A stretch of 64,000 nucleotides of DNA from contig CAZRLL010000001.1 of assembly GCA_964600735.1 (NCBI GenBank), positions 28,801 through 92,800 of the forward strand, read 5' to 3'. Shown piece after piece: positions 3,875 to 54,868 of this stretch; the first letter of the stretch is position 1, and the number at the start of each line of letters is the position of its first letter. Below the pieces are notes generated by a model, which was not told the origin of the DNA, ran no database searches, and was given only the letters and a program-made list of their open reading frames with translations. Source of the stretch: an uncultured archaeon. GTDB lineage: Archaea; Asgardarchaeota; Heimdallarchaeia; Heimdallarchaeales; Kariarchaeaceae. Position numbers and translations under genes: made by a program.

Positions 3875-4204
3875 TTATTCACTTTTTATTCTTACACTTA
3901 AGCTCTTTACGGGTTTGGTGGCAGATAAAGGGTCAGATAAGTCAGACCCCCAACCACTGACATCAACGGCCACAAGCTCAAATATATAAGGCGTTCCTGG
4001 AACATACCCAGTCAAAAGTATCTTAACACTTCCATCAAGCTCAGCAGGATACACAACAGGATCTACCATACCATTAACTATAAGTGTGTACGAAGACACT
4101 CCAACCTGCGGATCACATACTAAATAGTAGTCTCTAGCTTCAACTTTACTAACTAGAAGTAACAACATAAAAAACAAACTACCAACTAATATTCTTTTTT
4201 TCAT
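3875..4204 (-). CDS. Secreted Ig/FN3-like small protein with N-terminal signal peptide
   Basis: N-terminus MKKRILVGSLFFMLLLLVSKVEA is a signal-peptide-like hydrophobic stretch followed by a beta-rich sequence. Confidence 0.35.
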   Translation of the reverse strand: MKKRILVGSLFFMLLLLVSKVEARDYYLVCDPQVGVSSYTLIVNGMVDPVVYPAELDGSVKILLTGYVPGTPYIFELVAVDVSGWGSDLSDPLSATKPVKSLSVRIKSE

Positions 4205-4217
4205 TTTTTATTCCTCC

Positions 4218-4613
4218 CTATACTGGGTCTCCAACAAACTCACCAATTTCCCGCCCAAGTACATCATACAATATAGCAAAAGAATCAACATATTCAACAA
4301 TACCGCCTGCACTACCATCTGCTCTTGCTTGGTACTTGTCTGCAAGCCCAAGATAAATCTTAGCAATCTGCCTCTTATCAAGTTCTATTGCACCTGGAAT
4401 CTTTAACAGAAACGCAGTCGCAGTTGCTTTAACTGCTAAGACTCTACAAGCAGCAGCAGACGCGTACCAAACGCTATCAGATTCCTGTTCAAGGAACGCA
4501 TCTATATCAGCATCTGAAAAATCGAAGTCAGTACCATAAGTCCCATCTGTAGTATCATGACAATAAAGTCTAACTTTACCCCTGTCACTCGTGGGGTCGA
4601 AAGAGAAACTCAT
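4218..4613 (-). CDS. Hypothetical protein
   Basis: ORF, 4-nt spacing to neighbouring genes. Confidence 0.3.
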   Translation of the reverse strand: MSFSFDPTSDRGKVRLYCHDTTDGTYGTDFDFSDADIDAFLEQESDSVWYASAAACRVLAVKATATAFLLKIPGAIELDKRQIAKIYLGLADKYQARADGSAGGIVEYVDSFAILYDVLGREIGEFVGDPV

Positions 4614-4834
4614 ATTAATCCACCTTCTTTCTTTCCAACTTTTTCGTTCTCTGCCCAGTTTCGACTAACGAAACTAACTCTTCAAGAGTTTCAAGAATAG
4701 AAATAGAACAAAGAGCAGTAGTTAACAACCAGGCCTCGTGTCTTGTCTTTGGGATTTTCGTTAAGTACTCATTTGCCTCACTACTTTCTAGTAAGTCTTC
4801 AAGAACTTTTCTGTACTTACTCATCTCTAGCCTC

Positions 4835-6862
4835 CTATCCCATTTTTATTCCAAATTTCTTTCTCTGTTCTTCACTCATTTCTTGTGGATCGAGAAAAGT
4901 TCCTTTTTCTGGATCGAACGGCCAGTTATCTGGAACGTTTAATCTTTTCCTTTCTTGAAGTAAAGATCGTTCTAGTTGAGATATAGCTAGTTGTTTCTGA
5001 GTACTTAAGTTTTGTTCTTCTAAGTTAACCTGCACTTTCCTCATATTATGTAATTGTAAGTTTAAATCACATCGTTCAACTTCCCCAAGTAACGCTCTAA
5101 CTCTCCAAAGTGTACCCTCATCGGAAATCCTCATGACTGCTCTCCCTCCCTTGTACCTCGTCCTCACTCCAATTCCATCAGTTCCATTTAAAAGTGTTAA
5201 TGGCGGAGCAAAACTAGGTAGTAAATAGTGAGACTTCTTAAGGAACATCTCTGCATGGTCGTAGATGTTCTGCGTCTTTGACACTGCTAAACCAACGTTA
5301 AACAAGGCCGCGTTTAAAGGTGTCATCCCGTCGTAATGTTCTACTATCTTCCAAGCATGTATGTTAGCAATAGTTGGATCGTGCTCTAATGCTGCCATAC
5401 AAGCGTGAGTTCTTGCTATAGTGTCATTCGGCGCCCATAATATCGACTTAACTAAGTGTTCCATCCTTTTCTTACTATCTTGGATTACTCTACTCCTTAA
5501 CAGATGGTAAGAAGCAGCACATCTCTTAATAACACATTCCCATAAGAATCCGGCTAAAAGTAAACCAACAAGAAAAACTAAAAAGATGTTAGTACTAAGT
5601 AGTATTGAATTTCCTAAAAGTTGTGCTTTGACAACTATTAACCCACAGATCCCCCAAAAAAGTATTCCAGTAGAAGGAAGTCTTAAAGCAAAGAACCAGA
5701 TAGCATCGACTGCTATTGCCGTTAAACCAGCAAGAAGTGTAAGCATCTTAAAGAATTCAAGGCCAGTAGAAGTACCAAGAAATTTAAAACCAACATAGTA
5801 GACCGAACCTAGGAAACATAGAAAAATAAGAGTACCAACAACTCCAAACTCAACTAGATGTTCAAGGTAATCATTGTGCACTTCTCTAGGTTGTGGAGTT
5901 AAATATCTATCTGGTTTTAAAAACTCCCCGTCCTCATTATGAATGTCAGCCTGAGTGTTATATATTTCTCTACGAAAACTCCATAACCCCCACCCAAAAA
6001 TTGGTTTTGCTTTGAAAAGCTTAAGAGCACAAATCCAGTAACACAGTCTGTACCTGAACGATGCATACCAAACCTGATCCCCTTTCGGGTCTACTGGTTT
6101 GTAAAAAAATGTTTTCCAGTAAACTTTGAAGAGAGTAATAGTTGCAACGACCGCAATACAACTAACAATAACACCACCATAGGAAACCAAATCATCATAG
6201 AAGAAGAGTTGACCATAGTACGCACAGACTAAAATAAAAAACCAGACACTTCCAAGGAAACCAAAGAGTCCAGCTCTAGATCTCGTTTTGATTAAGACAA
6301 AAGCAGTAAACCCAACAAATAAGAAAAGGGTACTATCAAATTCCAAGGCTGAATATACTAGAAACCATACTGCAATACATAAGTATGAGGCCAAGAAGTT
6401 CGGATTACCAACAGTCCCAATAGCGTTTGTTACAGCGCCTCCACCCTTCAGTTTATTAGGAAAGAATGGATCAACTCCCAGAGTTTGGATATGAGAGTAG
6501 ATAGAACAAAGAATTGTCCCAATAGCACTAGCAAGTATAGGCCACTTTAAATTTTCTGGAGTAAGGAAAGAAACAAACAACAGAAAAGTTAAGACAAGTG
6601 GAAACTGAAGACCTATTTCTTTTCTTCCGTTATGAATTGGTTCGCTTTTTAGGAAAGAAACTACAAGGCAAGCGATAAATAAAAGGGAAAAAATGCTAGG
6701 GAGACTAGTGGAGACATAAGCTCCACTAGCCAACCCTAACAAGACGCCCAAGGTGGAGAGCGTACCAAGGGCGAGCGTCTGTGGCAACGCAAAACCATTG
6801 AAAAACGTTCTCGGGGCGAATATGAGAGGTATAGCCATCATACATGTAAGTACCCATACCAT
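4835..6862 (-). CDS. O-antigen ligase family (Wzy_C domain; WaaL/PglL-like) polytopic membrane protein with ~200-aa soluble C-terminal extension
   Basis: More than 10 predicted TM helices. The periplasmic-loop signature REVHNDYLEHLVEFGVVG matches the conserved H-N-x-YL-x-x-L-x-E-x-G-hh-G motif of the Wzy_C family. Confidence 0.65.
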   Translation of the reverse strand: MVWVLTCMMAIPLIFAPRTFFNGFALPQTLALGTLSTLGVLLGLASGAYVSTSLPSIFSLLFIACLVVSFLKSEPIHNGRKEIGLQFPLVLTFLLFVSFLTPENLKWPILASAIGTILCSIYSHIQTLGVDPFFPNKLKGGGAVTNAIGTVGNPNFLASYLCIAVWFLVYSALEFDSTLFLFVGFTAFVLIKTRSRAGLFGFLGSVWFFILVCAYYGQLFFYDDLVSYGGVIVSCIAVVATITLFKVYWKTFFYKPVDPKGDQVWYASFRYRLCYWICALKLFKAKPIFGWGLWSFRREIYNTQADIHNEDGEFLKPDRYLTPQPREVHNDYLEHLVEFGVVGTLIFLCFLGSVYYVGFKFLGTSTGLEFFKMLTLLAGLTAIAVDAIWFFALRLPSTGILFWGICGLIVVKAQLLGNSILLSTNIFLVFLVGLLLAGFLWECVIKRCAASYHLLRSRVIQDSKKRMEHLVKSILWAPNDTIARTHACMAALEHDPTIANIHAWKIVEHYDGMTPLNAALFNVGLAVSKTQNIYDHAEMFLKKSHYLLPSFAPPLTLLNGTDGIGVRTRYKGGRAVMRISDEGTLWRVRALLGEVERCDLNLQLHNMRKVQVNLEEQNLSTQKQLAISQLERSLLQERKRLNVPDNWPFDPEKGTFLDPQEMSEEQRKKFGIKMG

Positions 6863-6910
6863 ACAAGTGCTCTCCTTGTTTAGGGGTTACTAAAATGTTT
6901 TAGTAAATTG

Positions 6911-7237
6911 TTACTTATGTGAGTCGAGTCGGTCTCTATGATCCTCTAATTTCTTCTGTATTTTATCTAACGTTAATACTACACGCTCTTGTGCTTGTTG
7001 TATAAGAGCAGTATTTTTATCTATAGCAGTAACATTGCTAGACGTTTTTGATTGAAGAGTAAAAACCGCCCCAAATACTAGTACAATAATACCAATAGCT
7101 ATTGAAAAGATCCTCATCGACACTTTCCCCCTCGCATCTTTTAAGTTATCGTCTAACCTCGAATGTTCAGGACAAAATTCTCCACACCAAGCTTTTCTCT
7201 CTGCTTCATTTTTGAACGTAACGTCTCCATTAGACAT
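6911..7237 (-). CDS. Small single-TM membrane protein
   Basis: 108-aa ORF with a central hydrophobic helix (IFSIAIGIIVLVFGAVFTL) and a charged C-terminus. Confidence 0.3.
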   Translation of the reverse strand: MSNGDVTFKNEAERKAWCGEFCPEHSRLDDNLKDARGKVSMRIFSIAIGIIVLVFGAVFTLQSKTSSNVTAIDKNTALIQQAQERVVLTLDKIQKKLEDHRDRLDSHK

Positions 7238-8207: not shown

Positions 8208-9299
8208 TTAGGCAGTGAACTTATACGCGTGTTTGTCGTCAAGTGCAGCAACCTGACCGTAAAAACGGACTTTATGCTTTGCCTTGATGTCTTTATTGAA
8301 CTCGTCTTCATGACCCGGTTTTGAAGAGAAAGTCTGCAACGGCCATACCTCAGACCAAATGAAGTCTTCTGCAAAATCTCCCAGAAACCAAGTAGTCGCA
8401 CTTTGAACTGTAACATAAGGACTGGTAATTGGAGTAAAAGCACCCTTCCAAATATTTACAGCATTCTCAGTTCCCTCAGGTACGAGAGTACTTTTTTGCA
8501 TCTGAACAGCTTCAACCCACAGGTCGAAAGGAAAGATCGCGTAAACATTAGCCGGATCAATAGTAATGTAATCATCGTTCTCATCTTGCTGAATGTGCAT
8601 GAGCTTAAAAGCTTCTCTCAATCCAACCTCACCAAAGGGAGTAGTTGCTCTGGAGTTTTGTTCCCTATCTCCAACAGCAGTAGTCCTGTAGAACGCGGCC
8701 GCTACACCACTTGGCCTGTACACATTCGTATTTATATCTTGTACACCATTAACAATCAGTCTCTCTTTGTACTGCGCGGCCTTTTTCCCAATTCCTTTAG
8801 CACGAGCAATGATCTGATTAGTCTTATCAAAGTAGATCATTTCTTCCGTAATTGAGATAATCCGACCATATTTCTGGTGAGGTACAGTTACGAATTTCTC
8901 ACCAATCCCACTGTCATTATACGGAGCTCCCTGCTGGACTTCTTCCGGCATTTCAACCGCATTAAAACCCGCGTAAGTCTCAATTTCCATATTCGACTTA
9001 ACGGTATGAGTAAGCAATTTACCAATAGTCTTGACTGAGTTGTAAGCTTTAATAAGAGTCGCACTGATAAGTACCCCAGTAATTTTGGGGAACATGTCTG
9101 TAGAAACTGCTTCTGATATGTCTCTAACAAGGCCCGTTTGAGGATCTCGCTCAAAAGCCTCCCAACATTCCTTAAGAGAAAAATCGTTAGGATTCAATTC
9201 ACCCTTTTCAAGCATACCCTCAATGGCCTCTACGGTCCCGGCGTTGCCTAAAGACTCATGCATATCCCTGAGAGCTACACCTAATCTGTTTCTTATCAT
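8208..9299 (-). CDS. Major capsid protein (HK97-fold candidate)
   Basis: 363-aa ORF in the canonical position after the scaffold/protease and decoration genes. It is followed by a strong terminator, typical of highly expressed MCP genes. Sequence-level homology was not verified. Confidence 0.55.
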   Translation of the reverse strand: MIRNRLGVALRDMHESLGNAGTVEAIEGMLEKGELNPNDFSLKECWEAFERDPQTGLVRDISEAVSTDMFPKITGVLISATLIKAYNSVKTIGKLLTHTVKSNMEIETYAGFNAVEMPEEVQQGAPYNDSGIGEKFVTVPHQKYGRIISITEEMIYFDKTNQIIARAKGIGKKAAQYKERLIVNGVQDINTNVYRPSGVAAAFYRTTAVGDREQNSRATTPFGEVGLREAFKLMHIQQDENDDYITIDPANVYAIFPFDLWVEAVQMQKSTLVPEGTENAVNIWKGAFTPITSPYVTVQSATTWFLGDFAEDFIWSEVWPLQTFSSKPGHEDEFNKDIKAKHKVRFYGQVAALDDKHAYKFTA

Positions 9300-9839: not shown

Positions 9840-9860
9840 AGCATTTCATGACCCCCGTGA

Positions 9861-10394: not shown

Positions 10395-10436
10395 TTGTGG
10401 AACCTCCTTAGTCTATTATCAATGCGTTAGAGAAAA

Positions 10437-29977: not shown

Positions 29978-31546
29978 TCATTCATTTTTTCGTCTCCTAT
30001 ATTGAATTCGTTTCAATAAGCGATACATTCCCAGTTTGTGGATCCACCACAGTAAGAAAGTCTTCACCAAGTCTTTTCCCCAACACTTCACATATTGAGA
30101 ACATCTCTCTGACCGTAATACAGCCTGCCAATATTGTGATTGATAAGGTTTTGCAGCCCACATCCTTTCGAACATTGGTGTAGCTTTGAACTCCCTGTTC
30201 CATCTGTCCCATATTACCTCCAAATCTAACTTATGGTCGCTTAATCTGAATCTCTCCAATGGATTTAGCCGGTTTCCTATTAAAAGGTGATATTCGTCTG
30301 TGGTAAGCTTTGGCTTGAACTGATCTTCGTAAATTTTGGTTCCTGGATAAGGAGTGGTGACGCCGAATATGACGCCAGCCGATGGTTTGATTTCTTTCAA
30401 AAATTGGTGTGTAGATTCTAAATCTTTCGATGTCTCGCCAGGCAAATTCAAGAGCATTGTAGCGAAAGACCGCAACTTGTATTTCTTGCACCACGAGAAT
30501 ACGTGACGAATTTGATCTAGTGTTATTCCTTTGTTTACTTGATCCAAAAGTTGTTGGCTCCCCGATTCCACTCCTATATCTAGTTGTATGCATCCTGTGG
30601 CTTTTAGTCCCCTGATCATTTCCTCTGAACATATGTCTGCCCTCGTTTGAGTTGCGTAAGGTATTTCAACTATACTTTTTCTTGACGAATAAGTTTCAGT
30701 CTTACTCTTCCATTCAAACCACCCATTCATCCACTTCTTTGACATACCAAACATGTCGTCAAACAAGTAGAAAAAATCTATGCTATAAAATTCCTTCAAT
30801 TGCACAATCTCGTTTATGACATTTCCTACTGGTCGCAATCTACACGCTTTTCCTTCATTTGCCTGCCACACGTTATTCGCAGCACAAAAGTCGCAATCAA
30901 AAGGGCAACCTCTACCGGCAAAAATACAGACCATAGATGTGTAGATACGCCGAATAATAAGCTTCTGAGGATAAAGATAATAATCCATATCAACGAGATC
31001 ATAGCTAGGACTTGGTAAATCTCCCATATCCATGACTCTTCGTTTTTTTGTTTTAACATATTCTGGCTCCTTTAGTACGTAAGACATGTAAGCAATACCA
31101 GCAACTTCGTCTAACCGTTTAGTTACAGGTTTGTCGTACCAACACCATAAATCATAACAAGTCTCTTCTCCTTCTCCTAATACAGCTACATCGAAATTCG
31201 ACTCTTTAAAAATGAAGTCTTGCGGACTAATCGTACTATGCGCGTTTCCCACAAGTAAAGTTGTATCTGGTTGATTAAGTTTGACAATACCCCCAAGACG
31301 CATAATAGCAGGATAATCACTATGAAAAGCAGCCAACCCAACAAAACGGGATGGGTTACATCTAAGTTCTTGACTAATCGTTGAGTAGTGTACTTCAAGT
31401 TCATGAGGCCTATCACCTCCCTTTACGTCTACAATCTTAACCCTAAGACCCTTCTCTCTCAAATAAGCAGATAAGTAGAGAAAGTAATAAGGCGGATGCG
31501 GATTACGTGCATTAGTCGGACTTGTTATGAATAGAAAGTCTAACAT
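29978..31546 (-). CDS. B12-binding radical SAM enzyme
   Basis: CPFDCDFC (CxxxCxxC) and an N-terminal cobalamin-binding-like domain. The start was moved to MLDFLF with its RBS, because the ORF-track start overlaps the tRNA-like element. Confidence 0.65.
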   Translation of the reverse strand: MLDFLFITSPTNARNPHPPYYFLYLSAYLREKGLRVKIVDVKGGDRPHELEVHYSTISQELRCNPSRFVGLAAFHSDYPAIMRLGGIVKLNQPDTTLLVGNAHSTISPQDFIFKESNFDVAVLGEGEETCYDLWCWYDKPVTKRLDEVAGIAYMSYVLKEPEYVKTKKRRVMDMGDLPSPSYDLVDMDYYLYPQKLIIRRIYTSMVCIFAGRGCPFDCDFCAANNVWQANEGKACRLRPVGNVINEIVQLKEFYSIDFFYLFDDMFGMSKKWMNGWFEWKSKTETYSSRKSIVEIPYATQTRADICSEEMIRGLKATGCIQLDIGVESGSQQLLDQVNKGITLDQIRHVFSWCKKYKLRSFATMLLNLPGETSKDLESTHQFLKEIKPSAGVIFGVTTPYPGTKIYEDQFKPKLTTDEYHLLIGNRLNPLERFRLSDHKLDLEVIWDRWNREFKATPMFERMWAAKPYQSQYWQAVLRSERCSQYVKCWGKDLVKTFLLWWIHKLGMYRLLKRIQYRRRKNE

Positions 31547-31557
31547 AAATTTAAAGG

Positions 31558-31646
31558 TTGGGAGTAGGAGAGATTCGAACTCTTCGGGTTGTACTCCACT
31601 ACCATGTGGACCCACCGGTTCTGCGCTAAAACCGGCTCTACTCCCA
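31558..31646 (-). tRNA. tRNA-like element. It has a 7-bp acceptor stem and a T-arm AGAGTTCGAATCTCT identical to Ser-type tRNAs, but non-canonical D/anticodon arms (TCCAC-ATGGTA-GTGGA hairpin with a 6-nt loop). Isotype undetermined; it may be a degenerate tRNA or att-related.
   Basis: Reverse complement is GGGAGTAGAGCCGG...GAAGAGTTCGAATCTCTCCTACTCCCA. Confidence 0.4.
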
Positions 31647-31650
31647 CAAT

Positions 31651-32421
31651 TTACCTCCAGTCTAGTTTATTAAAGTCATTACGAAAATCACAAATATTCC
31701 ATAGTTCATTTATGTCAGCAGAACAACAATGGTCAGGACCATCAGCATGCTTATTAAGAGTAAAGTGTTTCTCTACCACTTTTGCTCCAAGAACAATAGC
31801 AGTTTTAGCGGTAGTAGTACCTACAGTATGATCGGAAAAACCATCAAACCTCTCTACGCTAAGAGGATTTACTCGTTTAAAAATAGAACTGTGAAAGTCG
31901 ATCTTACTTAAAGACGTAGGATATTCAGATACACAGTACATAAACGTACAGTTTCCACCCGTACCGGCTAACCTGCTCCACGTCCCGTAGATGGGCTCCA
32001 TCTTATGCATCTCCTCAATCATACCCATACTTACTAAGTATGGCTTCCCAGTTTTCTTAACTGCTTCAACTAACTCTTTGTCGTAAATACTACGACTTGC
32101 TATCTTATGTCTTTTCACTCCTAACTCTTCTAACCAATCAAGTCTCTTCAAATCAAAAGCAGAGGCCAAGAATTCTATACCAGCCTTTCTGCAGTGCTCG
32201 AACAATACTGCAACATCTCCAAAGTTCAACTCCGATCTTAAGATAGACTGCCAATTACTAAGACTAAAAGAGTCTGGATTTAACAATAGCTTAGGATCGT
32301 AAACTTGAAACTTTACTGCATCGGCACCACAGCCCTTCGCACTATCAATCATATTCCTAGCTAATTCCAGGTCCCCACCATGGTTAATGCCAATTTCTGC
32401 TATTATCTCACACTTTGCCAC
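31651..32421 (-). CDS. N-acetylneuraminate / pseudaminate synthase family (NeuB/PseI-like)
   Basis: MAKCEIIAEIGINHGGDLELARNMIDSAKGCGADAVKFQ is the canonical NeuB N-terminus. Confidence 0.8.
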   Translation of the reverse strand: MAKCEIIAEIGINHGGDLELARNMIDSAKGCGADAVKFQVYDPKLLLNPDSFSLSNWQSILRSELNFGDVAVLFEHCRKAGIEFLASAFDLKRLDWLEELGVKRHKIASRSIYDKELVEAVKKTGKPYLVSMGMIEEMHKMEPIYGTWSRLAGTGGNCTFMYCVSEYPTSLSKIDFHSSIFKRVNPLSVERFDGFSDHTVGTTTAKTAIVLGAKVVEKHFTLNKHADGPDHCCSADINELWNICDFRNDFNKLDWR

Positions 32422-32422
32422 T

Positions 32423-33097
32423 TTACTCTCCTATACCATCAAATATTACTGGCACTCTTTTCTGGAATTCTTTAAGTGTTGGTATCATTATCTCCTGCAT
32501 CTGTGGATGGGCTGCTTTGGCTGTACGGAGTTTGAAGATATGCCGCCACTCACGAAAGTTGGCCGTGACTACCAGTTCGGTCTTAAGGGAGTTTGGAAGA
32601 ACTGATCTGGCTTGCTGTGGGGACCAACCTAAATGGAGTAAATTCATATAAGTTTCTTCTGTACTATAAACAAGTTGAGCCCAGTCATAGTTTGCTTGAT
32701 CTTCTCCCCCAAGATCGTCTGGAGTGTCATAATCTCCCGGGTCAATATCAACCCAAGGTGGAATAACAAAAGTAACCCCTCCTTTATAATTACAGTACCT
32801 TGTACTCTCCTGGCTGAAGGCACAAAGCCTATGTCTGACCCACTCATGGCTGACCCCTCTATCAATAACAAACTTGACTGTAACCGCAGAGTGCTCAAGA
32901 ACAGATTCATGGCCTCTTTTTAAAATCATCTTAACAAAGTTAATAGCTGAAGTAGCGGTTATTTGATCTTCTGACTTGTAACAAGTTCTCCCAGCATGCT
33001 CTATTAAAGCAATAGGTGTATCACAAGGTAACATCTCATGTGCAGGATCGTACCCCATAATTGACAAAATTTCAAAACTCGGTTTTACTAGAAACAT
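32423..33097 (-). CDS. thyX: Flavin-dependent thymidylate synthase ThyX
   Basis: RHRLCAFSQESTRY matches the ThyX RHRxxxxxxxS motif. Confidence 0.85.
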   Translation of the reverse strand: MFLVKPSFEILSIMGYDPAHEMLPCDTPIALIEHAGRTCYKSEDQITATSAINFVKMILKRGHESVLEHSAVTVKFVIDRGVSHEWVRHRLCAFSQESTRYCNYKGGVTFVIPPWVDIDPGDYDTPDDLGGEDQANYDWAQLVYSTEETYMNLLHLGWSPQQARSVLPNSLKTELVVTANFREWRHIFKLRTAKAAHPQMQEIMIPTLKEFQKRVPVIFDGIGE

Positions 33098-33221
33098 TTT
33101 TGCTCTCCTTTCTTCTACTTACACGAACCTAGCAAAGCGTCATGTAAATCTGGATCTCCAACAAACAAAACAATTAAAACAACTATACTAAGAAAGACAA
33201 TTATAACAAGAGTATTGTCGC

Positions 33222-34049
33222 TCATTTGTACCTCTCTTGCTCATACCACCAGGACCTAACCCAACCTTGAAGGAATTTTGGTAACACATCAAACACTTCC
33301 ATCAAGTAGTAATATAACATTATCTTATAATACCATCTTCGCGACACTTCACTTTTCCACTTCCTAACAATCTTTCTAGACTCTTCCCTACGCTTATGAA
33401 CATCACCTATAACAGAGCCATAATGAATAGACAAAGTTCCACCAAGATTATCTGGTATGTAATGGAACTGGTACTTAGAAGCAACCTTCAACCACAAGTC
33501 CCAGTCGTGACTAATTTTAAACTTCCAGTCCATGGGACCAAACTCATTGTATACACTACTTCTTATTAACACAGAAGAAGTTGGGACGAAGTTCTTTCTA
33601 AGTAAAACTTCAAAAACTTCACCAGAAAAACAAGTTGACATCTTACTCCACAACTCAGACCTACCAACGTCAACATACTTTACTAGCATATTGTGGTAAG
33701 AAAAGACTTCTCCAGTTACTTCTAAGTACCAAACTTGCAATTTTAACTTCTCTGGCTCCCACAAGTCGTCGCTATCTAAAAATGCAAGATACTTCCCCTT
33801 AGCATTAGCACAACCTGTATTTCTAGGATGAACTGGGCACCCACTATTCCTTCCCATATCAATGTATCTAATTCTGCCATCACAGATTGTATGCGACGCT
33901 ACAACTTGTTTAGTGTTATCGGTAGACCCATCATCAACAACAATAATCTCTAAGTCCTTAAAAGTCTGCATTTGAACAGACTCTATTGCTATAACTAAAT
34001 CGTCTACCCTATTATACGTTGGTATTATAACAGATACTATTGGGTCCAT
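33222..34049 (-). CDS. Family 2 glycosyltransferase
   Basis: VSVIIPTYNRVDDL...EIIVVDDGSTDNT. Confidence 0.7.
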   Translation of the reverse strand: MDPIVSVIIPTYNRVDDLVIAIESVQMQTFKDLEIIVVDDGSTDNTKQVVASHTICDGRIRYIDMGRNSGCPVHPRNTGCANAKGKYLAFLDSDDLWEPEKLKLQVWYLEVTGEVFSYHNMLVKYVDVGRSELWSKMSTCFSGEVFEVLLRKNFVPTSSVLIRSSVYNEFGPMDWKFKISHDWDLWLKVASKYQFHYIPDNLGGTLSIHYGSVIGDVHKRREESRKIVRKWKSEVSRRWYYKIMLYYYLMEVFDVLPKFLQGWVRSWWYEQERYK

Positions 34050-35293
34050 AGATCGATATACCTCTCAATAATCTTGTCAGTAGAGTACTGATCAAGAAAA
34101 AGTTGTTTATTAGCAGCACCAAGACGCTTACGTTCACCAGCCTCCAGAAGTAGCCTAGAAACAAGAACCTTTAACCTTGAAACGTCTCCTGGATTAATGA
34201 GATAAGTAAAATCTGATTTGAACAGTTCCGGAATTCCACAGATATTAGACGCTACGATTGGCTTACCCATCATTAACCCTATTAAGATCACATTAGGAAA
34301 ATCTTCATCTCTAATACTTGGAACTAACAACACGTCACACGACTTAATTAAACTATAAGTGTCAAAGTCATCGTTTTCTTCTACCAGAACAAGACTAGTA
34401 GACGCTTCTGCTAACTTTTTTAAATTAGAACCTTCTGGGCCAGACCCACCAATAACAAGAACTCTTGGGTTATCACATTTTATTTTCCCGAAAGCCTCAA
34501 TCGCGTCCTTGAAGCCTTTCCTTTCTTCAAAGTTACCAACACAAAGAAACATAATGTCACTTTTCTTTATTGCTTTATCTAGTCCCCCTCGTAAAAGCCA
34601 AATAGAAGTACATTCCCTTGAAAGGACAGTATTTGGTATGACCTCCCAGTTTATAGTTACCCAGTTTTTGCCATTCGACGCGTTTTCTTTAACGATTATT
34701 GAAACCCACAAAAACTTACTTTGATCTCTACAATACTTAGATGCAGTAATAAATTTCGTTACACACTTCTTTACCAACCAAGTCATTGGTCTTTCCCACC
34801 ATCTATTTTTAGTTGTAGAGTTAATCATGTATGTTATCTTTGGGACTCCCATAAGGCGACCAGCAATAGCAGCACTATTACAGCTAGTAGCACCAGGATA
34901 CCCTCCGTTATTTATGTGCAACACATCGGGCCTCAATTGGCCTATCAGTTTGCACAAAACGATCCCCTCATAAAGCATAAAGAAATAACCCAGTGCCATA
35001 ACTGGTCTAAAATAAAGCCTGATTTTGTATAAGAAAGAGATAGGGAGGCGAAGTGGAAAAACGTCACGTTTACTACTATCTATTCTTTCGTTTGCTGACT
35101 TGCAAAAGATACCTGTCACCCATTCGTTAAAACCCTTCACATACTCTTTACTATATCGATAACTAAGCGTTAAGTCAAACTCGTTGTTTAGTACTTTGTT
35201 CTGTAAAAAGATACCTGGCATGTTTTCGCAACCAGCCCAACTACTATTATCGCTGTGTATATGTAGTTTCTTTTTCATTAACGAAAACCTCAT
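34037..35293 (-). CDS. GT-B glycosyltransferase (GT4-like)
   Basis: C-terminal FEERKGF...EDFPNV..GLMMGKPIVASNICGIPEL resembles the GT4 EX7E region. Confidence 0.6.
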   Translation of the reverse strand: MRFSLMKKKLHIHSDNSSWAGCENMPGIFLQNKVLNNEFDLTLSYRYSKEYVKGFNEWVTGIFCKSANERIDSSKRDVFPLRLPISFLYKIRLYFRPVMALGYFFMLYEGIVLCKLIGQLRPDVLHINNGGYPGATSCNSAAIAGRLMGVPKITYMINSTTKNRWWERPMTWLVKKCVTKFITASKYCRDQSKFLWVSIIVKENASNGKNWVTINWEVIPNTVLSRECTSIWLLRGGLDKAIKKSDIMFLCVGNFEERKGFKDAIEAFGKIKCDNPRVLVIGGSGPEGSNLKKLAEASTSLVLVEENDDFDTYSLIKSCDVLLVPSIRDEDFPNVILIGLMMGKPIVASNICGIPELFKSDFTYLINPGDVSRLKVLVSRLLLEAGERKRLGAANKQLFLDQYSTDKIIERYIDLWTQ

Positions 35294-35985
35294 TAAACTT
35301 CTTTATGACATCCTCTATAACTACTTGACCAACATTATCTTCAGCGATCACGTACTTTCCAGCCTCATAAGCTACCAATTCAGACTTAAGCCACTCTCTA
35401 AACTGTTCTACTTTCTTTTTCATTTTCTTCCCACGAAGAGCTTATCGAACTCTTTCTTATCATATTTACTTCCACCAGGTAAGTAGCCTGCCCAAGCGTC
35501 AGTTATTTCAATCCATAACTGCATAAGAAGAGCAAGGCCAACACAGGCAAAGATTAAGTAAAGAAAGAAAAAAGGATCAAATAACGTTAATTCTATAAAT
35601 ACTAGTACTCCTAAAGTTATAAACAAGTACTTTTTCATTCTACCCTCTGAAAGAATATTGATTTATCAAGATGCCTAAAGAACTGCATATCATTTAGGTC
35701 TGGGTAACGCCAAGAAAAAACTACCTGAGCAAGAAACACCCAGCCAAAGAAAACAACAAGCGCGTAAAAGTACCATGGCAAACATTTAAGTTTCATCTTC
35801 ACCTACCTTTAACGCAGCTATCATTTGAGAGGCATCCCATCTAGTAAATGGATTTGGCCATTTACCATCTCTGTTTGTAGGAGTGCCTCTATTTTTACAC
35901 AACTCTACTATTATATCCTTTTGGTCATCTGTAGCCGGTTCGTCCATAAACTCAAAACCTTTAACTGTAAACCCTTCGTGTTCCA

Positions 35986-37899
35986 TTATCTCCACCCCAC
36001 TTTGCTAAAATGGTCACACATACTAGTAACTACCCAACAACCATGAGCACAATAACATTTGTCCCTTTTTATATACTTTAACTCTTGCTTCATAGATGAC
36101 CCATTTAGAGCTTTAGTAACGTCGTAGTTGTAATACGCTAAGTCAGTCACTGTATCTCTCATCTCACACGCTACCAACTTACCGTCCGGGTAAATAGTAA
36201 ATGCCTTTTTACCAGCCAAACAAGGAAAGTCCCAAGGTTTACCTATAGTAGAATTAAGATACTGGACGTTAAATCTTCTCTTAGTTAGTAAATAATAAGA
36301 AAAGTAGTTCTTCTTTATAACTTCTAGAAGCCCTTTATACATTCCATCAAGGGAAACGTGGTACTTAAAACCTCTAAAAGACCTTTCAACCTCAAAGTTG
36401 TGATAATCTAGACTAGGGAAAGCGTACGCCATCTCTTTAGCGAAGTCAACTAACTTGTCCATAGTTCCTGGTGTTATCAAAGTATTGATACATACGTTTA
36501 AACCTTTATCTGTAGGTTTAAATGACAATAAAACCCTTAAAGTATCCATTGCCCTACTATATGACTTGTCATTCCCCCTCATTTCATTATGCGTTTTCTC
36601 GAATCCATCTAAAGATACAGATACAGTAATAGTTTTATGCTTAGCGACTAAAATCTTAGCCATCATGCCCTTTACTGCTAAAGGTCGCATACCGTTAGTA
36701 TTTATCCAAACATTGCTCTTTTCAGAAAACATATTAATAGCGTCTTGTATTCTATCATATAGGAAAGGTTCGCCACCCGTTAGTAGTACGTTGTTTGGAG
36801 TAACACTACGATGAATAGATCTTACGTTGACAATATCCATATCACCATACGTATGCAACTTACCCTTGTAGAAACAAGCCTTACATGACAAATTGCATTT
36901 GTCAGTAAGGAACAGTATCATTAAGTCTACACTACTTTCGTTTTTCCTAGAAGGTAGCCAGTCCTCGTAGTAGTGGTAGAAGTTCTTTGCTCTTACTATA
37001 AGGTGAGCTTTTACTTTTCCAGGGAGAAGTAAATGCCGCTTTATTTTTTGGCGTAACGTAGGATTAGCATTAAATTCTTTATAAGATAAAGATTGCCCCC
37101 TTCCCTTCACAAAACTAAAACATCTATCCCTTGCTTGACCCAGAGCAACGTCTGCGCTCCAATCACCACCAGGAGTAAGTAGTGCTTTAGCAGTGTAGCC
37201 TTCTTTATGAATACGATAGTTAGTAAGTCGATCCTTCAACATATAAAAAACGTAGTAGTACGAACATTTAAGTAAGAATACCCAATCTTCATGCTGATAT
37301 AACAAGTCTTCATCAAACCCACCAACAGCTTCAACTACCTCTCTTTTAACCATGATAGAAGATGAACAAATAGGATCACCATCAGACAAGATACCAAAGT
37401 GAGTACGCTTACGTAACTGTGCTAACAACTTTTCATTCCAAAACGAATCCCAGTAGCCTTTTGCCGGACTAGTTCCAAAAATTCCTCTACCAGGTTTCCC
37501 TACCCATGTCGCAGTTTCTTGGCTAATTATAGTATTAACTCCAGTATGTACTACGCCAGCGTCTTGCTCTTCCATCGCCAGTACTTGTTTCTCTAGCTTA
37601 GTGGGTTCCCAGTAGTCGTCTGCATCTAGATAGGCTATATAGTCGCCAGTACTTATTCTAAAACCCAAGTTTCTACTCTTACTAACACCTAAGTTTTCAA
37701 AATTCTCTATTACTCGTAACTTCTCTTTTAAACTATCTTCATATCTACCTACTACTACCAAACCACCATCAGACGAAAAGTCGTCTACTACAATAATCTC
37801 CCAGTTAGTATAAGTCTGAGATAATACACTGTCTATTGCTTGACCTATGTACCTCTCGTAGTTGTAGAGTGGAATTATAACAGATACTTTACTCAACAT
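35986..37899 (-). CDS. Fusion of a GT2 glycosyltransferase (N-terminus) and a radical SAM/SPASM-like domain (C-terminus)
   Basis: N-terminus VSVIIPLYNYERYIGQAIDSVLSQTY...EIIVVDDFSSDGG. C-half has CNLSCKAC (CxxxCxxC) and further Cys clusters. Confidence 0.6.
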   Translation of the reverse strand: MLSKVSVIIPLYNYERYIGQAIDSVLSQTYTNWEIIVVDDFSSDGGLVVVGRYEDSLKEKLRVIENFENLGVSKSRNLGFRISTGDYIAYLDADDYWEPTKLEKQVLAMEEQDAGVVHTGVNTIISQETATWVGKPGRGIFGTSPAKGYWDSFWNEKLLAQLRKRTHFGILSDGDPICSSSIMVKREVVEAVGGFDEDLLYQHEDWVFLLKCSYYYVFYMLKDRLTNYRIHKEGYTAKALLTPGGDWSADVALGQARDRCFSFVKGRGQSLSYKEFNANPTLRQKIKRHLLLPGKVKAHLIVRAKNFYHYYEDWLPSRKNESSVDLMILFLTDKCNLSCKACFYKGKLHTYGDMDIVNVRSIHRSVTPNNVLLTGGEPFLYDRIQDAINMFSEKSNVWINTNGMRPLAVKGMMAKILVAKHKTITVSVSLDGFEKTHNEMRGNDKSYSRAMDTLRVLLSFKPTDKGLNVCINTLITPGTMDKLVDFAKEMAYAFPSLDYHNFEVERSFRGFKYHVSLDGMYKGLLEVIKKNYFSYYLLTKRRFNVQYLNSTIGKPWDFPCLAGKKAFTIYPDGKLVACEMRDTVTDLAYYNYDVTKALNGSSMKQELKYIKRDKCYCAHGCWVVTSMCDHFSKVGWR

Positions 37900-38363
37900 C
37901 CCATATTACCTCGTCGCTAGGAGCTATAAACTTTATTCCTAATGGAAGTTCTACGCCATCCGGACTACAACCATTCTCCGTAGCTATAAACTTTTTCCAC
38001 GACTCTAAAGCAGTCCCAAAACTCTCACTGTTTACATACATTGGCCTGTCATCGTCTTGCACATAAAACAAAGGCATTAGCTTTCTCCTTTCTTTATTAC
38101 CATTGACACATAAACACTACCATCATTATAGCAGCAATACAAAATACAACGTTCATTTGATTACCGTTATAGGATTCTTACGATTCCGTTCTCCTTTTCC
38201 TTTCTAAGTGGTTTAAATCTTAGAAACGCTACGCCATCAATACATACCCAAACTCTACCGTCTTTTGCTACTTGAACACCTAAATCACCATCCATAGAAG
38301 GAAGACCATCTGGCGTAGATTCTATTGAGATATGGCCATACTGATGAGTTTCTTTAAATTCTT

Positions 38364-39377
38364 TCATCTCAAGTACTCCTCGTCCTTGTAAATATTCGCA
38401 TCCAAATCGACATAAGGCCACCAGTCTTTGTAGTTCTTTTTATACCACTCTATAGTAAGATGTAATCTATCCTTAAAGTTAGACCTTAAAAACTGACTCT
38501 TCCAAAGAGAATTACACTTTAAGGCGTAGCGACTGTCGTTGCCAGGACGATTTGGTACTTTTTTTACGTACTCCTCACCAATCCTGGCTTGGTTGCAAAC
38601 TACTTCCTTTAGTACAGCACTCATTATTTCTCTATTGTTACGTCTTACACCGCTACCTACATTGAAAGTATTTCCATCAAAACCCTTATGCATAATTATA
38701 TCTATAGCACGACAACAATCCTCAACGTAGACGTATTCTCTAACTTCATCTCCATCTCCATGCAAGATCATTCTTTTATTCTCAAGAAGTCTTGTTATAC
38801 ACATTGGAATAAGCTTCTCTGGGTATTGATTAGGCCCATAGTTGTTACATGGTCTAACAATCAAAACTGGAAAGTTGTACGTTTTAAAGTACGAAAGTAA
38901 AAGTATGTCTGCAGACGCTTTACTAGCAGAATAGGGAGACGTCGGATTAAGTCTAGCAACAGTATCAGCCTCAAAACCAACAGGTAAGGAACCATAAACC
39001 TCATCAGTTGATATCTGAACAAACCTTCTCACTTTTGCTTTTCTAGCCGCCTGTACCAGATTAATAAGCCCGACTATATCAGTTTGTATAAAGTCAACTG
39101 GATTGTGTATACTACGATCAACGTGAGTTTCAGCAGCAAAGTTCACAACCACTTCTATCTCATGGTCCTTTAAAATTGACCTAATATAGGTATCTCCTAT
39201 ATCAAAAGTGTAAGTCGTAAAGTTGTTGTAATCCTGTGGAGGAGGTATATTTTTAATGTTGCCAGCGTAGGTAAGCTTATCCACGTTAACGATATTGTAG
39301 TCTGGGTATTTACGAAGTAGTCTTTTAATAAAATGGCTACCTATGAAACCACAACCCCCAGTAACTAATATATTCAT
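38364..39377 (-). CDS. dTDP-glucose 4,6-dehydratase-like SDR (RfbB family)
   Basis: MNILVTGGCGFIGSHF Rossmann motif and overall RfbB-like layout. Confidence 0.75.
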   Translation of the reverse strand: MNILVTGGCGFIGSHFIKRLLRKYPDYNIVNVDKLTYAGNIKNIPPPQDYNNFTTYTFDIGDTYIRSILKDHEIEVVVNFAAETHVDRSIHNPVDFIQTDIVGLINLVQAARKAKVRRFVQISTDEVYGSLPVGFEADTVARLNPTSPYSASKASADILLLSYFKTYNFPVLIVRPCNNYGPNQYPEKLIPMCITRLLENKRMILHGDGDEVREYVYVEDCCRAIDIIMHKGFDGNTFNVGSGVRRNNREIMSAVLKEVVCNQARIGEEYVKKVPNRPGNDSRYALKCNSLWKSQFLRSNFKDRLHLTIEWYKKNYKDWWPYVDLDANIYKDEEYLR

Positions 39378-39547
39378 ACCCTTACTCCCATGTTCGCGAG
39401 CCTTTTGTACTGTAAGTACTTTGCCCTTCTACCATCTGGGTGGTTCATTAACGTACCCTTACTAGTTATCACATACCTACGCCGGGCATGAAACGAGAAG
39501 TCGCCATAGACTAACTTCCTAATTTTCTTTGCTTTACTTCCTCTCAT
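39374..39547 (-). CDS. Small basic protein (MRGSKAKKIRK...)
   Basis: Strong SD GGAGGAGAAATG. Its stop overlaps the RfbB-like start (ATGA). Confidence 0.3.
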   Translation of the reverse strand: MRGSKAKKIRKLVYGDFSFHARRRYVITSKGTLMNHPDGRRAKYLQYKRLANMGVRV

Positions 39548-39548
39548 T

Positions 39549-40145
39549 TCTCCTCCCCCTTTACGACCTATATGAAGTTGTCCTAGAAGACATACCAGCA
39601 TAACCTTCAGAAACACCTTTCCCGGTATGGGCGAAGAGCTGAGTATCTTTTTGCTTTATTCCTAGATCTAGACCTTCCTGAATAGCTCCTTGACTAGCCG
39701 ACAAAAATATAAACTCCCACTTGTACTCATCTCTCTGCCGGTTAATAAGCTCGTTAACTTTCTTTTTGTTATACTCCCTACTGGCATTTTACATCCCATC
39801 GGTAAGTATAAATACGATAACTTTCTCTGGACGCTGGCCCTCGTCGGTATTTGCAAGCCGTTCACCAACTGTAGTAATAGTCCTACCAATAGCATCGAGC
39901 AACGCAGTGGTACCTCTCGGTATATAAGATTGGCTATTGTATTCTTTGACATCTGCAATAGGTACACCTTTGTAGTCAACCTTATATTCGTGATCAAAAA
40001 GCACTATAGTTACGTTAGCCTCCCCAGGTACCTCTTTCTGTTCTCTAATAAAAGTATTCAACCCACCAATAGCATCTGAGGCTATAACGTCCATACTTCC
40101 CGATCTGTCGATAATACCTACTAACTCATTCAATCCCTTTTTCAT
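39549..40145 (-). pseudogene. von Willebrand factor A (vWA) domain protein interrupted by an in-frame TAA (minus strand, 39789..39791). Both halves are in the same frame.
   Basis: N-part has DRSGSMD (MIDAS DxSxS) and ILTDG. After the TAA the same frame continues with KWEFIFLSASQGAIQEG, typical of a vWA C-terminus. Confidence 0.5.
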
Positions 40146-42107: not shown

Positions 42108-42250
42108 CTCAACTAATCTCCTGTATAAGTTTGATGACTTTAGGCCCGCACTTTTTTGCGACATAATACAATATAAAGAAAGCACCGACAAACTCAAGGA
42201 AATCGAGAACTTTATACAATACGACTCCCCACAATCCCATAACTCCAAAA

Positions 42251-50362: not shown

Positions 50363-50372
50363 TTTCCAATCC

Positions 50373-54857: not shown

Positions 54858-54868
54858 AAAATTCTCCT

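What the first reader, a model, noticed from the sequence alone, without database searches (positions are those of the whole stretch)
4835..6862. Wzy_C / O-antigen-ligase-family membrane protein embedded between capsid and fibre genes
A 675-aa polytopic membrane protein with the REVHNDYLEHLVEFGVVG loop signature of WaaL/PglL/Wzy-type enzymes sits in the middle of the virion block. PglL-type members of this family are protein O-oligosaccharyltransferases. Together with the downstream nonulosonic-acid island, this suggests a self-contained phage glycosylation system. Its targets could be host surface structures or phage structural proteins.
Basis: partly seen in the sequence, partly recalled or inferred. 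Interest (0 to 1): 0.85.

Follow-up and report, generated by a model that had tools for sequence, protein, structure and literature searches.

The report
Phage-core WaaL-like glycan ligase with TPR
A lineage of large uncultured phages keeps, in a fixed slot between its capsid and neck genes, an apparently active membrane enzyme of the kind bacteria use to attach lipid-carried sugar chains to their surface, so these phages probably remodel the host envelope late in infection rather than glycosylate their own particles.

Summary

It is not a tape measure and not a sporadic moron. In every related contig that is long enough, down to 27% identity, the gene sits in the same slot between the major capsid protein (MCP) and the neck genes. 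A second, SU10-like phage lineage carries a related Wzy_C-TPR gene just before its adaptor genes.

The glycan region is real and larger than reported: the Pse pathway, NeuB and three glycosyltransferases. No flippase or priming transferase is visible, so the system is not shown to be self-contained. The active site faces the periplasm, so glycosylation of cytoplasmically assembled virion proteins is unlikely. Late remodelling of the host envelope is the best reading, with the acceptor unknown. Novelty: a new variant of a known kind.

The parts
4835..6862 (-). Complete gene for the 675-aa Wzy_C / WaaL-fold membrane glycan transferase
6871..6877 (-). Shine-Dalgarno AAGGAGA, 8 nt before the ATG
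   Evidence: Read directly from the sequence
5531..6862 (-). Transmembrane GT-C(B) core, residues 1-444, about 13 TM helices
5873..6121 (-). Large catalytic loop, residues 248-330, periplasmic by homology. It holds invariant R272, R297, P323, P325, R326, E327 and H329
   Evidence: hhalign to E. coli WaaL maps R288 to R272 and H338 to H329; invariance across 23 sequences
5834..5887 (-). REVHNDYLEHLVEFGVVG, containing the H[NSQ]x9GxxG ligase motif (H329, N330, G340, G343 invariant)
6275..6277 (-). Codon of R196 in the KTRSRAG motif, equivalent to E. coli WaaL R215 and to CmWaaL R191, which binds an Und-PP phosphate
   Evidence: at least 90% conserved; role taken from PMC10920833 and PMC3643930
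5531..5587 (-). Extra helix TM13, residues 426-444, absent from WaaL. It is inferred to carry the C-terminal domain across to the periplasm
   Evidence: Four hydrophobic helices after the catalytic His, against three in E. coli WaaL. An AF2 beta-bridge between 48-51 and 419-422 joins two loops that the model puts on the cytoplasmic side
5159..5485 (-). TPR-like helical repeat domain, residues about 460-568, with invariant P478, D511 and G512
4835..5119 (-). 60-residue helix (582-641) plus the conserved C-terminal NxPxxW[PVI][FY] hairpin (W647 invariant)
6911..7237 (-). 108-aa bitopic membrane protein with a coiled coil, directly upstream. It is a possible partner. Analogous small TM plus coiled-coil genes occupy this place in the close relatives but not in the deep branch
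4615..4824 (-). 69-aa protein directly downstream, conserved at 31-41% identity in the close relatives
4218..4613 (-). 131-aa conserved structural-module protein that closes the slot in all relatives (33-65% identity). It matches phrog_1732, of unknown function. Calling it a head-tail connector is a positional inference
3875..4204 (-). 109-aa exported protein with a Sec-type signal peptide (MKKRILVGSLFFMLLLLVSKVEA|RD), a weak fn3 match and an S/T/A/P-rich tail. It is a speculative periplasmic acceptor
8208..9299 (-). Major capsid protein, which marks the upstream border of the slot
   Evidence: PHROG head hits; Pfam Phage_capsid_4
29978..57704 (-). Glycan-biosynthesis region, a possible donor pathway whose link to the ligase is inferred. 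It holds two B12-rSAM enzymes, NeuB, GT2, GT1/4, a GT2-rSAM fusion, a 4,6-dehydratase, PIG-L, PseF-like, PseB, two WbuX, two HisF-like, one HisH-like, a GNAT and PseC-like

Best explanation
The gene encodes a catalytically competent, His-type (WaaL/PglL-class, GT-C-B fold) transferase. It sits in the host inner membrane and moves a glycan from an undecaprenyl-pyrophosphate carrier onto an acceptor on the periplasmic side. It differs from WaaL by a 13th TM helix that exports a TPR plus long-helix domain, which most likely recruits a protein partner or acceptor. It is a vertically inherited core gene of a lineage of roughly 110-kb siphovirus-like environmental phages. It lies tightly packed with the head and neck genes, with no intervening promoter or terminator signal above chance, so co-expression late in infection is inferred, not measured. 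The most likely role is remodelling of the infected cell's envelope: LPS-type glycolipid or surface or periplasmic proteins, possibly with the phage's own pseudaminic-acid-type glycan. That would mask receptors, block superinfection, or stop progeny being lost on cell debris. Shown: family, fold, conserved catalytic residues, architecture, conserved synteny. Inferred: orientation, late expression, donor, acceptor, biological role.
Against: No experiment has been done and the host is unknown. The MAG labels disagree, Planctomycetota against Pseudomonadota. No flippase or priming transferase was seen, although 37 kb of the contig was not inspected. The short loops placed in the periplasm are K/R-rich, which goes against the positive-inside rule. 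This can be explained by pyrophosphate binding, but the orientation rests on homology alone. The hhalign match to E. coli WaaL is weak overall (probability 22%, E 9e-4). Late expression would be poor timing for superinfection exclusion. The fixed position beside neck genes in two lineages hints at a tie to morphogenesis that this model does not explain. Co-occurrence with the glycan island is shown only for this contig.
Confidence: 0.5

Rival explanations
1. A PglL/PilO-type protein O-oligosaccharyltransferase in the strict sense. It would glycosylate Ser/Thr of exported proteins, either host pilins or surface proteins or the phage's own exported fn3-like protein, with the TPR domain selecting the acceptor. 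This is a sub-case of the best explanation that names the acceptor class.
For: The R/R/H triad is shared with PglL (PMC3643930). The P-x-x-G-x-G element at +15, +18 and +20 after the second Arg (P287, G290, G292) matches N. meningitidis PglL P313, G316 and G318. The paper lists those two Gly as PglL-specific, and E. coli WaaL lacks them. The gene is not in an LPS core locus. A periplasmic TPR domain suggests a protein partner. Exported fn3-like proteins with S/T/A/P-rich tails lie in the same module in the window and in the SU10-like locus L065.
Against: The Pfam PglL_A model is not detected at E<=1. The PglL-specific H400/E404/P406 element is not recognisable. The two fn3-like proteins are barely similar (E 0.028), and no exported neighbour was found in most loci. 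No pilin gene is nearby.
Confidence: 0.25
2. Glycosylation of phage structural proteins (fibre, decoration paralogs, capsid) by this enzyme.
For: The gene lies among capsid, fibre and neck genes in two lineages. Virion glycosylation exists in mycobacteriophages (Freeman et al. 2023, PMC10527164, seen only as a citation).
Against: By homology to WaaL the active site and the TPR domain are periplasmic (PMC10920833). Tailed-phage virions assemble in the cytoplasm. Of the structural-module ORFs in the window, the signal-peptide heuristic flagged only the 109-aa fn3 protein. My recollection, which I did not check, is that the known phage virion glycosylation uses soluble nucleotide-sugar glycosyltransferases; this phage has three such enzymes.
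Confidence: 0.05
3. A Wzy-type polymerase or seroconversion moron like D3 Wzy-beta. It would change O-antigen polymerisation in lysogens and would be merely parked in the structural module.
For: Phage Wzy_C genes described so far are of this type (PMC4815439, PMC9658991). The nearest non-family hit of the first search lies in a cellular Wzx/Wzy locus. The long C-terminal helix could mimic a Wzz-like co-polymerase.
Against: The family has an invariant His where inverting polymerases of the clan have Asp or Glu (PMC10920833). It lies on the same strand and is tightly packed with late genes, unlike the oppositely oriented morons (PMC9658991). It holds a conserved slot over deep divergence. It has 675 aa with a TPR domain, against about 410 aa. 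tblastn gave no match to D3-type phage proteins. No integrase was seen among the proteins scanned.
Confidence: 0.1
4. A co-opted role not aimed at making a surface glycoconjugate. Examples are draining Und-PP-linked precursors to time lysis, or a membrane scaffold or anchor for neck or tail assembly through its TPR and coiled-coil domain.
For: The gene is fixed next to neck or adaptor genes in two unrelated lineages. A small TM plus coiled-coil protein lies just upstream in the close relatives. No canonical endolysin or holin was recognised in the window.
Against: Strict conservation of the whole pyrophosphate-binding and His catalytic set argues for ordinary transferase chemistry. A periplasmic TPR domain cannot contact cytoplasmic assembly intermediates. 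37 kb of the genome was not inspected and may hold the lysis cassette.
Confidence: 0.1

Closest known systems
WaaL O-antigen ligase (CAZy GT121; Cupriavidus metallidurans WaaL, PDB 7TPG/7TPJ; E. coli K-12 WaaL)
   Different: No sequence-level hit to PDB WaaL or to any NCBIfam model. It has 13 TM helices rather than 12, plus a 230-aa TPR and coiled-coil domain. It is encoded in a phage head-neck module rather than a waa/LPS locus. A lipid A-core acceptor is unproven.
PglL / PilO (TfpO) protein O-oligosaccharyltransferases
   Same: The same Wzy_C core and R/R/H triad. The P-x-x-G-x-G element after the second Arg has the same spacing as in N. meningitidis PglL (PMC3643930). The gene is not in an LPS locus.
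   Different: The PglL_A Pfam signature is absent. There is no adjacent pilin. The C-terminal domain is TPR-like. No acceptor is known.
Seroconverting temperate-phage Wzy_C proteins (Pseudomonas D3 Wzy-beta, phi297, PP9W; Variovorax VarioGold VG_p25; Halomonas YPHTV-1 'O-antigen ligase')
   Same: They are phage-encoded Wzy_C membrane enzymes presumed to alter the host surface glycan.
   Different: They are about 410 aa with about 10 TM helices. They are moron-like genes beside lysis or integrase modules, oriented against the late genes and active in lysogeny (PMC9658991). The only detectable similarity is 23% identity over 31% of the query to YPHTV-1. The gene here is a lineage-core gene in the late operon with an extra domain.
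Cellular Wzy_C-TPR fusion proteins (for example P0054 on a diderm bacterial chromosome fragment)
   Same: They share the TM core and the TPR region: the profile matches positions 4-569, and Pfam TPR_8 and TPR_2 score above cutoff. They are the probable evolutionary source.
   Different: They lack the long helix and the conserved C-terminal hairpin. P0054 is a stand-alone chromosomal gene. Their function is also uncharacterised.
Tape measure protein
   Same: A long protein with hydrophobic segments inside a structural module.
   Different: Relatives encode a separate TMP (PhageMin_Tail, 666-1205 aa) about 9 kb further on. Fold matches to TMPs have probability of 0.08 or less.

Membership tests
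Wzy_C / O-antigen ligase superfamily (Pfam PF04932) | Match to the Pfam model above the gathering score | tested here: met
   62.4 bits against 31.7, E 5.2e-17, residues 183-348. All 19 full-length homologs carry PF04932.
Wzy_C / O-antigen ligase superfamily (Pfam PF04932) | Polytopic inner-membrane protein with the GT-C(B) fold shared with WaaL and SEDS | tested here: met
O-antigen ligase proper (WaaL, CAZy GT121) | Two conserved Arg that bind Und-PP phosphates and a His that activates the acceptor (CmWaaL R191, R265, H313; EcWaaL R215, R288, H338) | tested here: met
   They align to R196, R272 and H329. R272 and H329 are invariant and R196 is at least 90% conserved in 23 sequences. Residue roles come from PMC10920833 and PMC3643930.
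O-antigen ligase proper (WaaL, CAZy GT121) | 12 TM helices with a short cytoplasmic C-terminus | tested here: not met
   Four helices follow the His, against three in E. coli WaaL, and 225-230 further residues follow the last TM, against 7.
O-antigen ligase proper (WaaL, CAZy GT121) | Sequence-level membership (curated model or significant similarity to a characterised WaaL) | tested here: not met
   No NCBIfam hit. No PDB WaaL hit by phmmer or by profile. hhalign to EcWaaL gives probability 22%. The CAZy GT121 HMM was not available.
O-antigen ligase proper (WaaL, CAZy GT121) | Transfers O-antigen to lipid A-core, with the gene in an LPS core locus | not testable with these tools
   The context is a phage head-neck module. 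Acceptor chemistry needs experiment.
PglL/PilO protein O-oligosaccharyltransferases | The PglL_A (PF15864) signature that separates PglL from WaaL | tested here: not met
   The Pfam scan at E<=1 returned only Wzy_C. The criterion is from PMC3643930.
PglL/PilO protein O-oligosaccharyltransferases | PglL-type G-x-G after the second Arg (NmPglL G316, G318) | tested here: met
   G290 and G292 are invariant, at +18 and +20 from R272, the same spacing as in PglL. They are absent from EcWaaL in the alignment.
PglL/PilO protein O-oligosaccharyltransferases | An adjacent acceptor protein (pilin or another exported protein) | tested here: inconclusive
   An exported fn3-like protein lies four genes downstream in the window and another in L065. 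None was found in most loci, and the similarity between the two is marginal.
Wzy O-antigen/capsule polymerase (inverting BP-Pol, clan GT-C1) | Asp or Glu at the position of the ligase His, and a partnership with Wzx and Wzz in one locus | tested here: not met
   The His is invariant. There is no other polytopic membrane protein in the 64 kb. The criterion is from PMC10920833.
Seroconversion morons of temperate phages (D3 Wzy-beta type) | About 400 aa; located beside lysis or integration genes; transcribed independently of the late genes; similar in sequence to D3, phi297 or VarioGold proteins | tested here: not met
   675 aa, on the same strand, with 10-48 nt gaps inside the late module. tblastn gave no match to those phages. 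The description of the class is from PMC9658991.
Tape measure protein | The single long protein between the tail chaperones and the distal tail genes; no enzyme domain | tested here: not met
   A separate TMP lies downstream in relatives, and this protein has the Wzy_C catalytic core.

The most novel reading that the evidence does not exclude
Wzy_C-TPR ligases are a previously unrecognised class of late, morphogenesis-module-embedded phage enzymes. They were recruited into at least two unrelated tailed-phage lineages at the same place, just before the adaptor or neck genes. Their periplasmic glycan-ligase activity would be functionally coupled to particle production. One possibility is that they build a phage-specified, pseudaminic-acid-type glycan on an exported phage or host protein or on the envelope at the time of assembly. 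That could serve as a receptor mask for released progeny, or as a glycoconjugate that the lectin- and fibre-bearing virion itself binds.
Probability: 0.25. Interest if true: 0.8.

Novelty: new variant of a known kind. Interest (0 to 1): 0.6.

Why it matters
Phage-encoded surface-glycan enzymes are known almost only as lysogenic-conversion morons of temperate phages. Here a ligase-class enzyme with an added periplasmic TPR domain behaves as a core, vertically inherited gene of the structural module, and a second phage lineage shows the same arrangement. If it is active, envelope glycan editing is a routine late step in the lytic programme of a whole group of uncultured phages. It might use a sugar, pseudaminic acid, that the phage makes itself. 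It would also offer a compact, divergent O-linking or ligase enzyme with a built-in acceptor-recognition domain, which is of interest for glyco-engineering. Finally, it warns against reading 'glycosylation gene next to capsid genes' as virion glycosylation without checking membrane topology.

Tried and rejected
1. Tape measure or holin-like reading: rejected. A separate TMP lies downstream in relatives and the catalytic core is conserved.
2. Direct sequence link to a solved WaaL: phmmer and a profile against PDB sequences found nothing. Only the fold searches and an hhalign to E. coli WaaL made the link.
3. Homolog search with the C-terminal domain alone returned nothing, not even family members, so it is uninformative.
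4. PHROGs and NCBIfam have no family for this protein.
5. Co-occurrence of the ligase and the Pse island in relatives: PseB and TerL probes of IMG/VR did not land on Wzy_C contigs, in particular not on the 112-kb relative. Only circumstantial same-sample fragments were found (L014, L023 and L068, all from 3300027861).
6. Viewing the rest of the window's own 111-kb contig: 10 kb beyond the right end was obtained. Look-ups for the left end returned only short contigs or nothing.
7. Pattern scans of IMG/VR for the P0049-like second lineage found nothing or could not run.
8. The AFDB50 fold library was unavailable. The BFVD viral library gave no significant match.
9. Search for a lysis cassette at 22.6-29.7 kb: no Pfam hits.
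10. Identity of the conserved neighbour 4218-4613: only phrog_1732, of unknown function, and no PDB relative.
11. Host inference from MAG labels: rejected, because two lineage members are binned into different phyla.
12. Positive-inside counting gave no independent support for the topology. The conserved K/R-rich loops are exactly the ones homology places at the periplasmic active site.
Full report
OBSERVATION. The ORF at 4835-6862 (minus strand, ATG start, 675 aa) is real. AAGGAGA lies 8 nt upstream of the ATG. The quoted motif REVHNDYLEHLVEFGVVG is at residues 326-343. Pfam Wzy_C (PF04932) matches residues 183-348 at E 5.2e-17 and 62.4 bits, against a gathering score of 31.7, and no other Pfam family appears at E<=1. 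PHROGs and NCBIfam have no model for it. It is the only polytopic membrane protein among all ORFs of the 64 kb.

SURROUNDINGS. Every credible gene in the window is on the minus strand. In transcription order the genes are:
- TerL 20341-22194, portal 18713-20257, and a 1842-aa MuF-type head protein 13185-18713;
- a 468-aa protein and three roughly 175-aa proteins that look paralogous (their homologs in relatives cross-match between them);
- the major capsid protein (MCP) 8208-9299 (PHROG head families; Pfam Phage_capsid_4), then 139-, 135- and 108-aa proteins;
- the Wzy_C gene;
- 69-, 131-, 109-, 121- and 131-aa proteins, a 272-aa Laminin_G_3 lectin-like protein, and a repeat-rich fibre ORF that runs off the left end.
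The gaps to the neighbouring genes are 48 and 10 nt. Promoter-like and terminator-like sites between 2000 and 9500 do not exceed the shuffled expectation. So the gene looks co-transcribed with the head and neck genes.

A profile comparison with E. coli K-12 WaaL is weak overall (probability 22%, E 9e-4). It nevertheless aligns the three experimentally critical WaaL residues with conserved family positions: R215 to R196, R288 to R272, and H338-N339 to H329-N330. The roles of these residues come from PMC3643930. PMC10920833 gives the equivalents R191, R265 and H313 in the solved WaaL: the two Arg bind the Und-PP phosphates and the His activates the acceptor.

I added five deep-branch homologs (26-29% identity) to the alignment. 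The following residues remain invariant in 23 sequences: R272, R297, P323, P325, R326, E327, H329, N330, D331, E334, E338, G340 and G343. So do H77-N78 and the Q126/D131/G152-N153 loop. R196 and R270 are at least 90% conserved. This pattern indicates an enzyme under purifying selection, not a decayed membrane protein. In the clan that contains WaaL, the inverting polymerases carry Asp or Glu where ligases carry His (PMC10920833). The invariant His therefore favours ligase or oligosaccharyltransferase chemistry over Wzy-type polymerisation.

ARCHITECTURE AND TOPOLOGY (INFERRED). E. coli WaaL has three hydrophobic helices after the catalytic His and ends 7 residues after the last one. The phage protein has four, at 331-364, 368-389, 396-412 and 426-444. 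About 230 further residues follow. If the catalytic loop is periplasmic as in WaaL, the extra helix places the C-terminal domain in the periplasm too.

One internal check agrees with this. The model pairs residues 48-51 with 419-422, and this topology puts both loops on the cytoplasmic side.

One caveat applies. The short loops placed in the periplasm are rich in K and R. Phosphate binding is a reasonable explanation, but it means the positive-inside rule gives no independent support.

The C-terminal domain consists of TPR-like repeats (about 460-568), a 60-residue helix (582-641), and a conserved NxPxxW hairpin. P478, D511, G512 and W647 are invariant. The cellular relative P0054 aligns with the family profile through this region and has Pfam TPR_8 and TPR_2 hits above cutoff there.

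A CORE GENE, NOT A MORON. There are 19 full-length homologs at 40-59% identity, all from metagenomes. The IMG/VR viral collection holds 16 loci, five of them at only 26-29% identity yet full length. A scan of GTDB genomes found one more.

Gene maps show the same order in every locus that reaches far enough:
- a scaffold-like protein of 440-545 aa, then two or three proteins of about 170 aa, then the MCP;
- two to eight small genes, then the Wzy_C gene, then one small gene;
- the homolog of window 4218-4613, then neck and tail genes, then a separate tape measure protein of 666-1205 aa.
An MCP-based probe found extra lineage members. Those long enough (L050, L059) also carry the gene, and no counter-example was seen.

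Wzy_C identity tracks MCP identity across 13 loci (Spearman 0.73, p 0.004; the points are not phylogenetically independent). The gene's GC and GC3 are typical of the phage (z about -0.2). This pattern indicates long vertical residence. It also removes the tape-measure alternative.

A SECOND LINEAGE. An exhaustive profile search of 1.84 billion representatives gave 6581 hits at E<=1e-3, 1180 at E<=1e-10 and 80 at E<=1e-30. Below the full-architecture family lies a tier of 515-620-aa proteins that match the core and the TPR part but not the terminal helix. Contexts sampled from this tier:
- P0049 lies on a 65-kb phage contig with an SU10-type MCP. Its end overlaps the start of the first of two SU10_adaptor-like genes; the Pfam hit is weak on the first and confident on the second.
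- P0067 is only 32% identical to P0049 and shows the same order, with one 308-aa gene between the Wzy_C gene and the confident SU10_adaptor gene.
- P0051 lies on a short phage-like contig.
- P0054 lies on a diderm bacterial chromosome fragment with LptE, MurJ, ribosomal protein S20 and LeuRS.
So cellular Wzy_C-TPR proteins exist and are the likely source. At least two unrelated phage lineages keep such a gene just before their adaptor or neck genes. P0020, the nearest non-family hit of the first search, lies in an ordinary Wzx/Wzy polysaccharide locus.

THE GLYCAN REGION. It contains:
- two B12-radical-SAM enzymes, NeuB (31651-32421), a GT2, a GT1/4, a GT2-radical-SAM fusion and a 4,6-dehydratase;
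- PIG-L, a PseF-like cytidylyltransferase and PseB (406.5 bits against an equivalog cutoff of 407.75);
- two WbuX amidotransferases, two HisF-like genes and one HisH-like gene, a GNAT, and a PseC-like aminotransferase.
It lies 25-50 kb from the ligase and upstream in transcription. Related island fragments exist in viral contigs at 40-65% identity over about 15 genes (L022, L023). L023 comes from the same sample as a Wzy_C contig and a TerL contig of the lineage.

Ligase and island are shown in one genome only for the window's own contig. No flippase and no priming phosphoglycosyl transferase was seen in the window or in the next 10 kb. 'Self-contained' is therefore not established.

MECHANISM. 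Shown: family, fold, conserved catalytic set, added TM plus TPR domain, fixed late-module position. Inferred: periplasmic orientation, late expression, Und-PP-linked donor, acceptor, purpose.

The best-supported reading is an inner-membrane enzyme that ligates a lipid-linked glycan to an envelope acceptor late in infection. The purpose would be receptor masking, exclusion, or protection of progeny from adsorbing to debris. This parallels, but is not homologous in organisation to, the seroconverting Wzy_C genes of temperate phages D3, phi297 and VarioGold. Those are proteins of about 410 aa encoded as morons transcribed against the late genes (PMC9658991, PMC4815439). The only deposited phage with detectable similarity is Halomonas phage YPHTV-1, at 23% identity over 31% of the query.

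Whether the acceptor is a glycolipid or a protein is open. Three points favour a protein. The family has the P-x-x-G-x-G element at the PglL spacing (PMC3643930). The TPR domain suggests a protein partner. Small exported fn3-like proteins with S/T/A/P-rich tails lie in the module in the window and in L065. Three points count against a protein. The PglL_A model is absent. The two fn3 proteins are barely similar (E 0.028). Most loci show no exported neighbour.

Glycosylation of capsid, decoration or fibre proteins by this enzyme is unlikely on topological grounds. The soluble GTs are the better candidates for that. They could also serve DNA hypermodification, since a ThyX gene sits among them.

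LIMITS. The host is unknown. The window's contig is deposited as a Planctomycetota MAG and a lineage member as a Pseudomonadota MAG, and both are all-phage over the stretches seen. 37 kb of the 111-kb genome was not inspected. Nothing here is experimental.

VERDICT. This is a new variant of a known kind: a WaaL/PglL-class ligase with a periplasmic TPR module, fixed as a core gene of phage morphogenesis modules. Interest 0.6.

Noticed in passing
window 29978-57704: The glycan-biosynthesis region is much larger than a 'nonulosonic-acid island'. It holds NeuB, PseB, PseC-like, a GNAT, PseF-like, two WbuX with two HisF-like and one HisH-like gene (acetamidino chemistry), PIG-L, two B12-radical-SAM enzymes, a GT2, a GT1/4, an unusual GT2-radical-SAM fusion (35986-37899) and a 4,6-dehydratase. 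A ThyX gene (32423-33097) sits between NeuB and the GT2, so DNA hypermodification is an alternative use for the GTs.
   Followed up: partly
window 1-64000 and L060 (10 kb beyond the right end): No Wzx-type flippase and no priming phosphoglycosyl transferase is visible. The Wzy_C protein is the only polytopic membrane protein, so any lipid-linked pathway would depend on host enzymes.
   Followed up: partly
L065 10001-11599 and L072 642-2270: A second, unrelated phage lineage (SU10-type MCP and adaptor) carries a related 532-542-aa Wzy_C-TPR gene just upstream of its SU10_adaptor-like genes. The order is conserved between members that are only 32% identical.
   Followed up: partly
window 3875-4204; L065 5683-6039: Small exported proteins (Sec signal peptide, fn3-like, S/T/A/P-rich C-terminal tail) are encoded inside the structural modules of both lineages, which is unexpected for virion modules. 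Their mutual similarity is marginal (E 0.028).
   Followed up: partly
window 6911-7237: A 108-aa bitopic protein (N-terminal CxxxC-like motif, TM 43-61, C-terminal coiled coil) lies directly upstream of the ligase. Fast-evolving small TM plus coiled-coil genes occupy the same place in close relatives (L003, L006, L007, L008, L013, L014) but not in the deep branch.
   Followed up: partly
window 1-2229 and 2189-3007: A fibre-like ORF of at least 743 aa runs off the left end. Its C-terminal part consists of repeats of about 30 aa (SVVSGVTINDFSSQAKxxLGGVTLAGVSK). A 272-aa Laminin_G_3 / ConA-like lectin protein precedes it. The fibre's N-terminus is shared at 39-73% identity with fibre-like proteins in other lineages (L001, L065).
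   Followed up: no
window 13185-18713; L001 1-3726: The MuF-type minor head protein is a giant 1842-aa fusion. In the 112-kb relative the corresponding protein also carries an ADP-ribosyltransferase toxin domain (PF03496), which suggests an ejected effector.
   Followed up: no
window 9318-10964: Three consecutive proteins of about 175 aa lie just upstream of the MCP. They look paralogous, because homologs in relatives cross-match between them. Relatives carry two or three copies. They are candidate decoration or scaffold-associated proteins.
   Followed up: no
L060 335-9161 (contig region beyond window position 64000): The phage contig also encodes an aldehyde:ferredoxin oxidoreductase (AFOR), a UbiD-family decarboxylase, a class-V aminotransferase, a second ThyX and a class II-like ribonucleotide reductase. 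This is an unusual set of auxiliary genes.
   Followed up: no
whole contig; L067: The window's contig (111,339 bp) is deposited as a Planctomycetota MAG, and a lineage member is deposited as a Pseudomonadota MAG. Both are phage over everything inspected, so phage contigs have probably been binned into MAGs and the protein is annotated as bacterial (MBW8001758.1).
   Followed up: partly
L026-L047: Many IMG/VR contigs carry PseB, PseC-like, GNAT and NeuB genes next to SbcCD-like and RecA-like genes, as the window does (58832-63351). Pseudaminic-acid-type pathways may therefore be common in a broad group of environmental phages.
   Followed up: no
L001 12247-13260: A NUMOD3 homing-endonuclease gene is inserted two genes downstream of the ligase in the 112-kb relative and is absent from the window.
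   Followed up: no
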